From NCBI RefSeq assembly GCF_045037415.1, contig NZ_CP173438.1: DNA of 64,000 nt. One strand, written 5' to 3'. Source of the stretch: Escherichia coli. GTDB lineage: Bacteria > Pseudomonadota > Gammaproteobacteria > Enterobacterales > Enterobacteriaceae. Below, one piece after another: positions 24,001 through 27,000 of this stretch; positions within the stretch are counted from its first letter, which is position 1, and each line of letters begins with the position of its first letter. The position numbers were made by a program.

Positions 24001-27000
24001 ATCCCATAGTTCTCAGCATTGGCTATAAAAGATATATAGTTATACTCTAACTCTTTAAGTAGCTTAATAAACTCCTGAAATGGGCCTTCTTTTTCTTCAT
24101 CAATTTTTTGCATTCCAGGAACATTTTCAAGCATAATATATTCAGGAAGAAGTTCTCTAATAAAACGATGAGTTTCATTTAGTAGATTTCTCCTTGAGTC
24201 GTCACTAGTTTTATTTTTATTCTGTTGCGAAAATGGTTGACATGGTGCACATGCACTCAGTAACAAAGGCCGTTTAGCTTTAATATCAATGATGTCGGAG
24301 ATATCTTGAGGTTCGATTTTCCTAATATCATCTTGGATGAATTTTGCATCAGGGAAATTAGCTTTAAATGTTTCTGATGCTTGTTGGTCAATATCTAATC
24401 CAAGCTCGATATCAAAGCCAGCCTGACGTAGCCCTTCACTGGCTCCACCACAGCCACAAAAAAAATCTATAACTATCAATTTGATACCTTCTTTGAACTA
24501 AATAAAACAACTCGAATAAGTTGATATTTTAAATAAAAATAATTGGTATGGATATGAACTTTGGTCACGCTACCGCCCTGAGGTCATGGCCATCCCCAGA
24601 CCTTTTAAAGGGATTATGAACAACACCCAGCCGACGTTCAACGGTGTTACCCATACATATCACAAAGTTAGTTAATTGGTTGGTCGTAAATTGACCTAAA
24701 ATGATTGAGGGCAATGCAAAAATCATTGGGAAATCAGGCGACACAGATGTTCGGAAGAGACTGAATGTTAAAAATATAGAATGTATATTCTCAAAAAAGA
24801 GATATTTCATTACATTTTATATGTGTATAGGAAAGTGAGATTGGCGAATCACCTCCCAATCATCCCGCCAGCGCTCCATTCAGCGCCACGCCAACCCTCA
24901 CTCCAGCCCACGTCATCGCCCCCAGCCAGAATGTCGGCAACACCAGAAACATCAACCTCATCACCAGATTGATAATCACGTCATCCTGCGTATTCTGGAT
25001 CCCGGCTAAATTCCTGCTACTGTGGGTATCGCTGTTGTAGAGCACATCCAGCAGCCAGCTATCAAGCCACCGTGCCAGTTCCCACCAAAAGGTGAGGAAA
25101 AATAGTGCAAACTGCACAAACGTCAGCGTCATCACTACTTTCACATCCCACGCCGAACAGAGCGTTATCAGCGGAATACAGATCACCAGCGCTATTTGCA
25201 GCTGCGCCTGTACCATCGGTAGTGCCTAACGCACGCTGTCGAATGCCGTACATGCCGCTATGCTGCCGAGGATATTTCTAGCGCCGGATGCCAACCGGGT
25301 GGCGGCATTGGCGACGGTGCCATCAACGTTACCGCCATAGCTTGGATAAACGCGCCCATTCTGCGATACCTGCATATTTCGTTCACTGACCCGCGAGCGC
25401 AGCACGGCCTCTTCATACACTACCTGCGACTGGTCGATTTTTTTAAACGCCGTCCAGATATCTAGGGCAGGAAGTTGCAGTAGACGGGCTTTCAGCCCAA
25501 CGGTGTCGTCGGCCCACCGCTGTTTACAAGTGGGATAGCCGCCCGCGCCCGTATCGGCCAGCCCGGCATCGCGCGATGCACTGTACGGCCAAGCACTGTG
25601 TGGTGAAAGCGCATGGTCGGAAAAGGCCTGTTCAGCTAACCAAGCACATCCCACCATCACAAGAATCGCCAGAAAACCAAACTCAGTCAGAATAACTCTT
25701 CCTGATTCAGGCTTTGCTCCTGCATTATGGCTACCACTATTGTTTGCCTGCACGTATCATCTGATAACGGTTAATTAACTGATTTAGCGCCATTTCAGCC
25801 TGTTTTTGCTGCTGTTCACTGCCATTCTGGTTACGGACTTCACCGTAGCGACGTAACTGCTCTTCCGCCGGGATATGCCGGTTAAAAGCCTGCATGATGC
25901 CAAACACCTCCGTTTTCAGTTCACTGACCGTCATGTATTTTCCCCGCTGTTCATCCTGACGGTTCAGGCGCTCAGCCAACTGCTGTAAGCGGATCATGCC
26001 TTCGTTCCAGCCCGTCATCGCCTCTTCCGGGAGCGCACGACTCCTTACACTCTTCTGCCAGTTATCCACCATTTCCTGAACACGGGGATTGCCGGGGACA
26101 AGAACCCTCAGTTGCTGCAGCAGCTGCGCACTGCACCGCAGGTTGTATGCTGGAGGTAATTCTGCCAGTCGCGTTATCTGCTGACCGGAAAGGGTTATCC
26201 AGTGCACTCAGGGCAGATACCGGATTCAGGTTAATTTTTTCAAACAGGGAAGCATATACGCTGTCGCCGGTATGCGTTTCAGATACCACACTCTCTGCGA
26301 CGTTCTTTTCTTTCTGTACAGACATCAGCATTTTCTGTAAGCGTACAGCGAGGGCCGTATTGACGGGGATGTGTTATTCAGCTGGCAGTGCTATGCGCCA
26401 CGGAAGCAGTTCGCTGACCCGGTTGACCGGCCAGTCTGCTATGACGGCAAGCACATGGCGAAGGTAGCTTTCTGGATCCACGTCATTCAGTTTGCACGTC
26501 CCGATCAGGCTGTACAGTAGCGCTCCCCGCTCACCACCATGGTCAGAGCCGAAGAACAGGAAGTTTTTACGACCCAGACTGACCGCCCGCAGGGCATTTT
26601 CAGCGATGTTGTTGTCGATTTCCACCCAGCCATCGTTCGCATAGTACGTCAGTGCCGGCCACTGGTTAAGTGCGTACGCGAACGCCTTCGCCACCATCAG
26701 GCTGGACAGGGGACTTTCACCCCCAAGCTGCTGAACATGCCCGGCACACAAAGAAGATCTCGGCTCAGTGGCCGGGATTAGTTATACAATTATCTGATTG
26801 ATTTTTAATATATCTTTTCTTAAATCATCGTTAATATCTGACGGTTCTAGCTGGTTTATAAGTTGCCTTATTTGGGTAAAGGTACTTTTCTGATCTTTTA
26901 GATCTTCTCCTTTTATCGTTGATAAAGCTGCAATTAGTTCACCATCGTAATATTCACCCGCTAACGGCTCTTTAGTTAGAACTTCCAACACTCTTGGCAT

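What the first reader, a model, noticed from the sequence alone, without database searches (positions are those of the whole stretch)
24860..26331. Decayed gene between the methyltransferase cassette and the cdi locus
Four abutting or overlapping ORF pieces with frameshifts and an in-frame TAG, adjacent to an IS66 remnant, indicate an eroded gene. It could have been cargo of either neighbouring module, for example an orphan toxin or an accessory gene of the cassette.
Basis: seen in the sequence. Interest (0 to 1): 0.25.

Follow-up and report, generated by a model that had tools for sequence, protein, structure and literature searches.

The report
Three gene stumps, not one gene
The 1.5 kb "decayed gene" in this uropathogenic E. 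coli island is three unrelated gene stumps joined end to end: two from a deleted type VI secretion cluster and one from a conjugative element. This is ordinary island decay and most of it is already annotated as pseudogenes.

Summary
The four minus-strand ORF pieces, the in-frame TAG and the adjacent IS66 remnant are all real. They do not come from one gene.

- Piece 1 (26337-26197) is the first 45 codons of the T6SS sheath gene tssC, 100% identical to intact tssC. It starts 6 nt from the IS66 end.
- Piece 2 (26201-25737) is the last 155 codons, the VasL domain, of the T6SS accessory gene tagA, which is intact at 455 aa in EAEC 042. It is joined to tssC' at a 6-bp microhomology, TGGATA. That junction marks a deletion of about 30.8 kb that removed the T6SS-1 cluster.
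- Pieces 3 and 4 (25618-24860) are the 3' half of a traG_N conjugal-transfer gene from an ICE that carries a TraI_2 relaxase. The closest intact copy is 87% identical at the protein level, in Salmonella enterica subsp. salamae. The remnant carries a CAG>TAG nonsense codon and a 43-nt deletion. About 104 bp of unknown filler lies between tagA and traG.

Homology to the ICE continues through the spacer after traG, to 24566. It stops 87 nt before the methyltransferase gene, in the slot where intact ICEs carry variable restriction and defence cargo.

The sequence is neither an orphan cdi toxin nor an accessory gene of the cassette. The same configuration occurs in 195 of 5,426 complete E. coli genomes, and NCBI's annotation pipeline (PGAP) already marks two of the three remnants as pseudogenes. 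Interest is low.

The parts
26338..26693 (-). IS66-family remnant: the 3' end of tnpC plus the terminal inverted repeat. The GTAAGCG terminus is at 26338 on the + strand.
   Evidence: 84% identity to the 3' end of a complete IS66 copy in strain A41, L002 4104-4461. The terminal 37-46 nt match thousands of IS66 ends in E. coli genomes. PGAP annotates a pseudogene 'IS66 family transposase, missing N-terminus'.
26197..26337 (-). tssC' stump: the last 6 nt of the tssB-tssC spacer plus tssC codons 1-45 (ATG at 26331). The rest of that ORF is an out-of-frame reading of tagA.
   Evidence: 100% identity over 141 nt to the start of intact tssC in strain PapRG-04-4 (L009 20001-20141), and 90-98% to tssC in other T6SS-1 strains. 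Intact TssC is 514 aa and its VipB domain starts at residue 89, so no domain is retained. PGAP does not annotate this piece.
26196..26201 (-). Deletion joint tssC'::'tagA. The 6-bp microhomology TGGATA is present in both parent genes.
   Evidence: Aligned parents: tssC ...GCACTGGATA|TTTGG, tagA ...AGAGTGGATA|ACCCTT, window ...GCACTGGATAACCCTT. In PapRG-04-4 the two parental points are about 30.8 kb apart (record 844287 to 875046). That interval holds the rest of tssC, tssK, tssL, hcp, tssH, vgrG, tssM, tssA, tssF, tssG, tssJ, tssE and the 5' part of tagA.
25737..26201 (-). 'tagA stump: codons 301-455 plus the stop codon of the T6SS accessory gene tagA, i.e. exactly the VasL domain. The ImpA_N domain and the membrane segment are missing.
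   Evidence: Pfam VasL PF12486, E=5e-37. 91-94% DNA identity to the tagA 3' part in other E. coli. Intact tagA in EAEC 042 (L014 9060-10427, 455 aa) has ImpA_N at 8-109 and VasL at 306-449. PGAP annotates a pseudogene 'VasL domain-containing protein, missing N-terminus'.
25619..25736 (-). Joint region: 14 nt of native sequence downstream of tagA (25736-25723), then about 104 nt of filler of unknown origin (25722-25619). This region supplies the first 44 codons of ORF piece 3.
   Evidence: Homology to other tagA loci stops at 25723. The filler is found only in the same 195 genomes, among them A41 and a second divergent copy in strain A19, and matches nothing else fetched.
24860..25618 (-). 'traG_N stump: equivalent to residues 223-475 of a 493-aa ICE TraG_N protein. 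It carries a CAG>TAG nonsense codon at 25228-25226. A 43-nt deletion between 24867 and 24866 shifts the frame and creates the TGA at 24862-24860.
   Evidence: Pfam TraG_N PF07916, profile positions 330-456 of 462, E=1.7e-20. 87% protein identity to P0001 from Salmonella enterica subsp. salamae. 81% DNA identity to L005 from 10670 onward, with the lesions mapped. PGAP annotates a pseudogene 'TraG N-terminal domain..., internal stop, missing N-terminus'.
24566..24859 (-). ICE backbone spacer downstream of traG, conserved with the Salmonella ICE up to the edge of the cargo slot.
   Evidence: The DNA alignment continues from the traG stop to L005 11746, 18 nt before the first cargo gene there. In the window it ends 87 nt before the Dcm start at 24479. 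GC falls from 54-59% in the stumps to 25-39% in the cassette.
18787..24479 (-). Context, not part of the finding: a three-gene cassette of Dcm methyltransferase, a 986-aa HATPase/HEF_HK ATPase and a 555-aa Response_reg_2 protein. It occupies the ICE cargo slot and ends at another IS66-family fragment.
   Evidence: Annotation of the identical sequence in strain 4/0. Pfam and PADLOC hits. In E. coli complete genomes the cassette region was found in 196 genomes, with the traG stump listed under every sampled hit. The same triad occurs elsewhere without a traG or VasL neighbour.

Best explanation
The interval is a non-functional scar made of three unrelated gene remnants inside a mosaic UPEC pathogenicity island that also carries hly, cnf1, cdiBAI and dsdCXA.

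Shown:
(1) An IS66-family element ends 6 nt upstream of the tssC start codon.
(2) tssC codon 45 is joined to tagA codon 301-303 at a 6-bp microhomology. In strains that keep the T6SS-1 cluster, these two points are about 30.8 kb apart.
(3) After the tagA stop come 14 nt of native flank and about 104 nt of filler. Then comes the 3' 53% of an ICE traG_N gene, which has a nonsense codon and a 43-nt deletion.
(4) ICE homology continues through the spacer after traG to the edge of the Dcm cassette.

Inferred: the ancestral island carried an sci-1-type T6SS followed by tagA and a variable cargo region. IS66 activity, arrival of the cdi locus and one microhomology-mediated deletion removed the T6SS. 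A fragment of a conjugative element with a TraI_2 relaxase and TraU/TraG_N transfer genes, consisting of the end of traG plus its downstream cargo, was captured next to tagA. None of the stumps is expected to make a working protein. Their only likely remaining role is passive, as homology anchors for recombination. Strain A41 has the same truncation and the same TAG, yet it has a different traG 3' end and different cargo.
For: - Pfam hits to two different families in different pieces.
- 100% DNA identity of piece 1 to the tssC start.
- Intact 455-aa tagA in EAEC 042 with ImpA_N plus VasL; the window retains only residues 301-455.
- T6SS-1 gene order between the two joint points in PapRG-04-4.
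- Closest intact traG_N is P0001, 493 aa, 87% identical over residues 223-475.
- Base-level map of the TAG, the 43-nt deletion and the conserved spacer.
- P0001 sits in an ICE backbone (TraU, TraG_N, then cargo, then ArdC and the TraI_2 relaxase), with methylase, HATPase, Vsr and HNH cargo directly after traG.
- The same slot holds other cargo in three more ICEs: RadC; unknown genes; a type I R-M system plus HNH.
- PGAP independently calls two pseudogenes here.
- The configuration is identical in 195 complete genomes, including 536 and UTI89.
- Some E. coli sequences carry further deletions, such as the VasL::TraG fusion ORF P0167.
- A41 shares the truncation and the TAG but has different cargo. 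Identity to the window is 99-100% in 25500-25200 and 86-91% toward the traG 3' end.
Against: - The 156-aa VasL ORF is uninterrupted and covers the whole Pfam domain, so a residual function cannot be excluded from sequence alone.
- The order of events (IS66, cdi arrival, deletion, ICE capture) is inferred, not shown.
- No intact ICE carrying this exact cassette after traG was found. The closest ICE is only 81% identical in DNA and has different cargo.
- The 104-nt filler is unexplained.
- A second, unrelated left partner (a tpsB 5' fragment) is joined to tagA at the same few nucleotides in 186 other genomes. A random microhomology deletion does not predict that.
Confidence: 0.9

Rival explanations
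1. One reading: one ancestral gene eroded by frameshifts and a stop codon, originally cargo of the cdi locus (an orphan toxin) or an accessory gene of the methyltransferase cassette.
For: Four same-strand ORF pieces abut or overlap, and there is one in-frame stop.
Against: The pieces match three unrelated families: TssC, TagA/VasL and TraG_N. The joints are sharp homology breaks, not indels. No piece resembles a CdiA-CT or CdiI. The cassette stands alone in other genomes.
Confidence: 0.02
2. The VasL-domain ORF (26207-25737, 156 aa) is a functional stand-alone gene that has been kept, not a pseudogene.
For: The ORF is open and identical or nearly so in 195 genomes. It spans the entire VasL Pfam domain. 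Two well-supported independent fusions, and a third seen in one contig, all keep tagA from the same nucleotide at the domain boundary.
Against: It lacks the ImpA_N domain and the membrane segment that define TagA (PMC6745524). The cognate T6SS-1 core genes are deleted at this locus. Its GTG start comes from tssC sequence, and I saw no obvious ribosome-binding site on reading it. Promoter-like matches are no more frequent than chance. Other E. coli sequences carry shorter or further-deleted versions (P0145-P0167).
Confidence: 0.06
3. The frame breaks are sequencing or assembly errors in an otherwise intact gene.
For: None specific.
Against: The same sequence is found at 100% identity in many independently sequenced complete genomes. 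The breaks coincide with homology boundaries to different genes.
Confidence: 0.01

Closest known systems
TagA, the T6SS accessory protein with ImpA_N, a membrane segment and a VasL domain (class B TssA-like protein; EAEC and V. cholerae TagA)
   Same: Piece 2 is 91-94% identical in DNA to the 3' end of the tagA gene downstream of the sci-1 T6SS in EAEC 042 and other E. coli. It covers the whole VasL domain.
   Different: Only residues 301-455 remain. ImpA_N (8-109) and the hydrophobic segment are gone, and the cognate T6SS core genes are deleted. It is a stump, not a TagA.
TssC/VipB, the T6SS contractile sheath large subunit
   Same: The first 45 codons and 6 nt of upstream spacer are identical to intact tssC.
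   Different: The VipB domain starts at residue 89 of 514, so no domain is retained. The open frame past codon 45 is an out-of-frame reading of tagA.
TraG_N (PF07916) protein of enterobacterial ICEs with TraU, a TraC_F_IV ATPase and a TraI_2 relaxase. From my own knowledge this gene set fits the pKLC102/SPI-7/ICEclc-like group; that assignment was not tested here.
   Same: 87% protein identity to residues 223-475 of an intact 493-aa TraG_N in a Salmonella salamae element. The spacer after the gene is conserved too.
   Different: The first 222 residues are missing. There is a nonsense codon and a frameshifting 43-nt deletion. No other transfer genes are present in the window.
Cargo or defence hotspots of conjugative elements. 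From my own knowledge, variable regions of SXT/R391 ICEs carry anti-phage systems; not tested here.
   Same: The position directly after traG_N holds different restriction, methylase or other cargo in each ICE examined. In the window it holds the Dcm-ATPase-receiver cassette.
   Different: Here only the edge of the slot survives, inside a chromosomal pathogenicity island. Mobility has been lost.

Membership tests
TagA (ImpA_N-TM-VasL T6SS accessory protein) | N-terminal ImpA_N domain (PF06812) | tested here: not met
   Pfam finds only VasL in the window ORF. Intact EAEC 042 TagA has ImpA_N at residues 8-109. Homology in the window starts at codon 301.
TagA (ImpA_N-TM-VasL T6SS accessory protein) | Hydrophobic or transmembrane segment between the two domains (as described in PMC6745524) | tested here: not met
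   In intact TagA the segment FLKPFVTGVCAALLAVSVAIPGW lies upstream of residue 301. It is absent from the window.
TagA (ImpA_N-TM-VasL T6SS accessory protein) | C-terminal VasL domain (PF12486) | tested here: met
   E=5e-37, profile positions 2-145 of 147.
TagA (ImpA_N-TM-VasL T6SS accessory protein) | Encoded with a T6SS core gene cluster | tested here: not met
   Only a 45-codon tssC stump remains. In the identical sequence of strain 4/0 the neighbours are cdiBAI, IS66 and the Dcm cassette.
TssC/VipB sheath subunit | VipB (PF05943) and VipB_2 (PF18945) domains | tested here: not met
   In intact TssC the domains span residues 89-389 and 399-509. The window keeps codons 1-45 only, and Pfam finds nothing in piece 1.
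TraG_N conjugal transfer protein (PF07916) | Full-length TraG_N domain in one open frame | tested here: not met
   Only profile positions 330-456 of 462 are detected. The alignment to P0001 covers residues 223-475, with a TAG and a 43-nt deletion.
TraG_N conjugal transfer protein (PF07916) | Embedded in a transfer gene cluster (TraU, TraC-type ATPase, relaxase) | tested here: not met
   These genes are present around intact homologues. They are absent from the annotation of the sequence that matches the window.
Orphan cdiA-CT/cdiI module | A toxin C-terminal fragment following a VENN-type boundary, plus a small immunity gene, downstream of cdiI | tested here: not met
   Downstream of cdiI lie the IS66 remnant and then the tssC, tagA and traG stumps. 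No piece hits a toxin or immunity family in Pfam or in the homologue searches.
Accessory gene of the Dcm-HEF_HK-Response_reg_2 cassette | Conserved co-occurrence with the cassette in other genomes | tested here: not met
   Three other instances of the triad (in Citrobacter, E. coli and Enterobacter) have unrelated upstream neighbours and no VasL or TraG_N gene. Linkage to the traG stump is seen only in the single E. coli configuration.

The most novel reading that the evidence does not exclude
The tagA breakpoint may not be random. Two abundant, unrelated fusions meet tagA within the same 2-6 nucleotides, right at the start of the VasL domain (tagA nt 901-907). One is tssC'::'tagA, found in 195 complete genomes. 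The other is a tpsB 5' fragment::'tagA, found in 186. A third fusion, hyp'::'tagA, is seen in one short-read contig. This could mark a site-specific break or recombination point inside tagA, for example a secondary site for a recombinase or a preferred cleavage site. Such a site would repeatedly truncate the T6SS island while keeping the tagA 3' block as the left anchor of the adjacent variable defence-cargo region. The traG stump appears to act as a similar anchor, given the cargo swap relative to strain A41.
Probability: 0.1. Interest if true: 0.4.

Novelty: already known. Interest (0 to 1): 0.12.

Why it matters
It matters little on its own. It corrects a misreading (one gene versus three stumps) and adds an unannotated tssC fragment to what PGAP already flags.

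The useful by-products concern island history:
- This UPEC island once carried an sci-1-type T6SS, lost in one deletion of about 30.8 kb.
- The Dcm-ATPase-receiver cassette sits in the cargo slot of a degraded conjugative element, which suggests how that cassette reached the island.
- Gene stumps can persist as homology anchors for cargo exchange.

Tried and rejected
- NCBIfam scan of the stumps, P0001 and a partial TagA found no family.
- Searches for the origin of the 104-nt filler (25722-25619) found it only in the same 195 E. coli genomes and in nothing else fetched.
- The distant DNA search of the traG region against plasmids gave only 65-70% identity hits to TraG_N genes of Pantoea, Klebsiella and others, and no closer ancestor.
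- Close homologues of the VasL fragment were all short E. coli fragments. The intact gene was found only by reading ORFs in EAEC 042, where PGAP splits a single 455-aa ORF into three 'pseudogenes', one mislabelled POTRA.
- P0134 and P0142 looked like further truncations at the same tagA point. They turned out to be a contig edge and a gene-calling artefact.
- DNA folding around the tagA breakpoint showed no structure (z=0.8).
- Rfam found no match, and promoter and terminator scans found nothing above chance.
- A literature search found no paper describing this remnant. EC042_4550, the locus tag I recalled for EAEC TagA, returned nothing.
- I considered dN/dS on the stumps and rejected it. Divergence between alleles mostly predates the truncation, and the 195 copies are at least 99% identical.

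Full report
**Observation.** The minus strand of 24860-26331 carries four ORFs: 26331-26062 (89 aa), 26207-25737 (156 aa), 25753-25226 (175 aa) and 25216-24860 (118 aa). ORFs 1 and 2 overlap in different frames, as do ORFs 2 and 3. ORFs 3 and 4 share a frame and are separated by a TAG at 25228-25226. An IS66-family remnant lies directly upstream. 26336-26693 is 84% identical to the 3' end of a complete IS66 copy in strain A41. The last 37-46 nt match IS66 ends in thousands of E. coli records. The terminal GTAAGCG starts at 26338.

**Source.** The window is E. coli. The interval and its flanks are 100% identical to the chromosome of UTI isolate 4/0 and many other genomes, including 536 and UTI89. 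The annotation of the matching sequence shows a typical UPEC island. It holds the cut and dsdCXA genes, cdiBAI, the IS66 remnant, the finding, a three-gene cassette (Dcm methyltransferase, ATP-binding protein, 'response regulator receiver domain' protein), more IS fragments, and hlyCABD-cnf1. PGAP already annotates two pseudogenes inside the finding. One is 'VasL domain-containing protein, missing N-terminus' (window 26201-25737). The other is 'TraG N-terminal domain-containing protein, internal stop, missing N-terminus' (25621-24860).

**The pieces are unrelated.** Pfam assigns ORF 2 to VasL (PF12486, E=5e-37) and ORF 4 to the end of TraG_N (PF07916, profile positions 330-456 of 462, E=1.7e-20). 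ORFs 1 and 3 have no hit.

**Piece 1 is the start of tssC.** A distant DNA search with 26336-26196 found the identical 141 nt at the start of tssC in strain PapRG-04-4. Copies 90-98% identical start tssC in other strains that carry the T6SS-1 cluster. The match covers 5-6 nt of the tssB-tssC spacer, the ATG at 26331 and 45 codons. The IS66 end therefore lies 6 nt upstream of the tssC start codon. Intact TssC is 514 aa and its first domain begins at residue 89, so nothing functional remains. The rest of 'ORF 1' is an out-of-frame reading of the next piece.

**Piece 2 is the end of tagA.** Close protein homologues of the 156-aa ORF were all short E. coli fragments, though several partial sequences extended upstream into a membrane segment and an ImpA-type region. 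In EAEC 042, downstream of the sci-1 T6SS genes tssA-tssF-tssG-tssJ-tssE, a single 455-aa ORF (L014 9060-10427) is open throughout. It has ImpA_N at residues 8-109 and VasL at 306-449. PGAP splits it there into three 'pseudogenes', one mislabelled POTRA. This is the TagA architecture: ImpA_N, a hydrophobic segment and VasL (PMC6745524). The window keeps codons 301-455 and the stop (26201-25737), with 91-94% DNA identity to other E. coli copies.

**The tssC-tagA joint.** The parent and product sequences are:
- tssC: ...GCACTGGATA|TTTGG
- tagA: ...AGAGTGGATA|ACCCTT
- window: ...GCACTGGATAACCCTT

The two homologies overlap by the 6 bp TGGATA (26201-26196). In PapRG-04-4 the two points are about 30.8 kb apart. 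That interval contains the rest of tssC, tssK, tssL, an OmpA-family gene, hcp, tssH, vgrG, an effector, PAAR, tssM, tssA, tssF, tssG, tssJ, tssE, a GIY-YIG nuclease gene, an exonuclease gene and the 5' part of tagA. I infer one microhomology-mediated deletion that removed the T6SS.

**Pieces 3 and 4 are the 3' half of an ICE traG_N gene.** The conceptual translation found 837 homologues. The best intact one is P0001 (493 aa, Salmonella enterica subsp. salamae), 87% identical over its residues 223-475. At the DNA level the window matches that locus from 25618 to 24566 at 81% identity. The base-level alignment shows three features:
- A CAG>TAG change at 25228-25226.
- A 43-nt deletion between 24867 and 24866, which shifts the frame and creates the TGA at 24862-24860.
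- Continued homology through the 264-nt spacer after traG.

The first 44 codons of ORF 3 (25753-25622) are not TraG. They consist of 14 nt of native tagA flank plus about 104 nt of filler. I could trace the filler only to the same 195 genomes, among them A41 and a second divergent copy in strain A19.

**Relation to the methyltransferase cassette.** In the Salmonella element, traG_N lies in a transfer backbone (TraU, two unnamed genes, TraG_N). It is followed directly by cargo (HATPase_c_3, Methyltransf_35, DNA_methylase, HATPase_c_3, Vsr, HNH), and then by ArdC and a TraI_2 relaxase. Three other elements with the same backbone carry different content in that position: RadC alone; unknown genes; a type I R-M system plus HNH. 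In the window, ICE homology ends at 24566, 87 nt before the Dcm start at 24479. GC drops there from 54-59% to 25-39%. The cassette therefore occupies the ICE cargo slot. In three other genomes the same triad (DNA_methylase, a HATPase_c_3/HEF_HK/HATPase_c protein, Response_reg_2) is a self-contained unit with unrelated neighbours. One of those copies lies next to a different conjugation system. So the stump is not an accessory gene of the cassette. More likely the cassette arrived as cargo of the element whose traG stump remains. This is an inference: no intact ICE with this exact cassette was found.

**Evidence of continuing decay and exchange.** Some E. coli sequences carry further deletions, such as a VasL::TraG fusion ORF and shorter VasL fragments. 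Strain A41 has the same tagA-filler-traG joint and the same TAG. However, it lacks the 43-nt deletion and carries other cargo: two Dcm genes plus a type ISP enzyme. Its identity to the window is 99-100% across 25500-25200 and falls to 86-91% toward the traG 3' end. This pattern fits replacement of the cargo by recombination with a crossover inside the stump.

**Unexplained.** In 186 other complete genomes, including the E. coli type strain, a 116-codon 5' fragment of an unrelated tpsB gene is joined to tagA at the same spot (...GATCATGGTTA|ACCC). One short-read contig joins the gene upstream of tagA to the same base, but no complete genome has that joint. The point coincides with the start of the VasL domain. 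I found no DNA structure there. Coincidence through the TGG(A/T)TA microhomology is possible, and a site-specific process is not excluded.

**Function.** Nothing supports function. There are no Rfam matches, and promoter-like and terminator-like sites are no more frequent than in shuffled sequence. The VasL ORF lacks the domains that define TagA and its T6SS partners. The main residual doubt is that this ORF is intact in all 195 copies.

**Comparison and verdict.** This is ordinary pathogenicity-island erosion, largely captured by existing annotation. Its single-gene interpretation fails by its own refutation test, and its two suggested origins (orphan toxin, cassette accessory gene) are not supported.

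Noticed in passing
window 27165-30329 (- strand), joint near 28270-28278: cdiA in the window encodes only 1,054 aa. 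Relative to strain 4/0 (3,262 aa) it has an in-frame 6,615-bp internal deletion that removes most of the repeat region but keeps the secretion domain and the toxin tip. The two alignments overlap by 9 nt at the joint. This could be a real deletion or a collapsed assembly.
   Followed up: partly
window 18787-24479 (- strand): A low-GC (25-39%) three-gene cassette: a Dcm methyltransferase, a 986-aa protein with HATPase_c_3/HEF_HK/HATPase_c domains, and a 555-aa Response_reg_2 protein. The triad is conserved in Citrobacter, Enterobacter, another E. coli lineage and many other bacteria. Apart from the methylase, PADLOC has only a weak restriction-enzyme hit (5e-11) for the ATPase and nothing for the receiver protein. 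It looks like a modification-linked defence system that PADLOC-DB (v2.0.0, 2023) lists only as a stand-alone methylase.
   Followed up: partly
L014 9060-10427 (EAEC 042, NC_017626.1 4884070-4885437): RefSeq/PGAP annotates the intact 455-aa tagA ORF of EAEC 042 as three separate pseudogenes (ImpA_N, 'POTRA domain-containing protein', VasL). The 'POTRA' label seems to come from chimeric reference proteins such as the O157:H7 ORF that fuses tpsB, a tpsA fragment and tagA nt 676-803.
   Followed up: yes
tagA nt 901-907; window 26196-26201; L003 8001; L018 568/569: The same breakpoint in tagA is used by at least two unrelated fusions: tssC'::'tagA in 195 genomes and tpsB'::'tagA in 186. A possible third appears in one contig. 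The breakpoint sits at the start of the VasL domain. No mechanism was identified.
   Followed up: partly
downstream of tagA in L003, L004, L010, L014, L015, L017 versus the window: The region between the tagA 3' end and the PAPS-reductase/IbrB/PerC genes differs from strain to strain. It holds a Qat system with a KAP NTPase, AAA ATPases, small hypothetical genes, or the traG stump plus Dcm cassettes. It behaves like a defence-cargo hotspot. TagA C-termini also vary with the cargo.
   Followed up: partly
window about 18190 and 26338: The block tssC'-'tagA-'traG-cassette is bracketed by two truncated IS66-family elements in the same orientation. The right end of one lies at 26338. The left end plus a tnpA 5' fragment of another lies near 18190-17858, with terminus GTAACCG rather than GTAAGCG. 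Each has lost its outer part.
   Followed up: no
L005 11764-18930 (Salmonella enterica subsp. salamae ICE): The cargo slot of the closest intact ICE carries two HATPase_c_3 proteins, a Methyltransf_35 protein, a Dcm with Vsr, and a ScoMcrA-like HNH nuclease. This is a dense cluster of modification and restriction genes between traG_N and ArdC/TraI_2.
   Followed up: no
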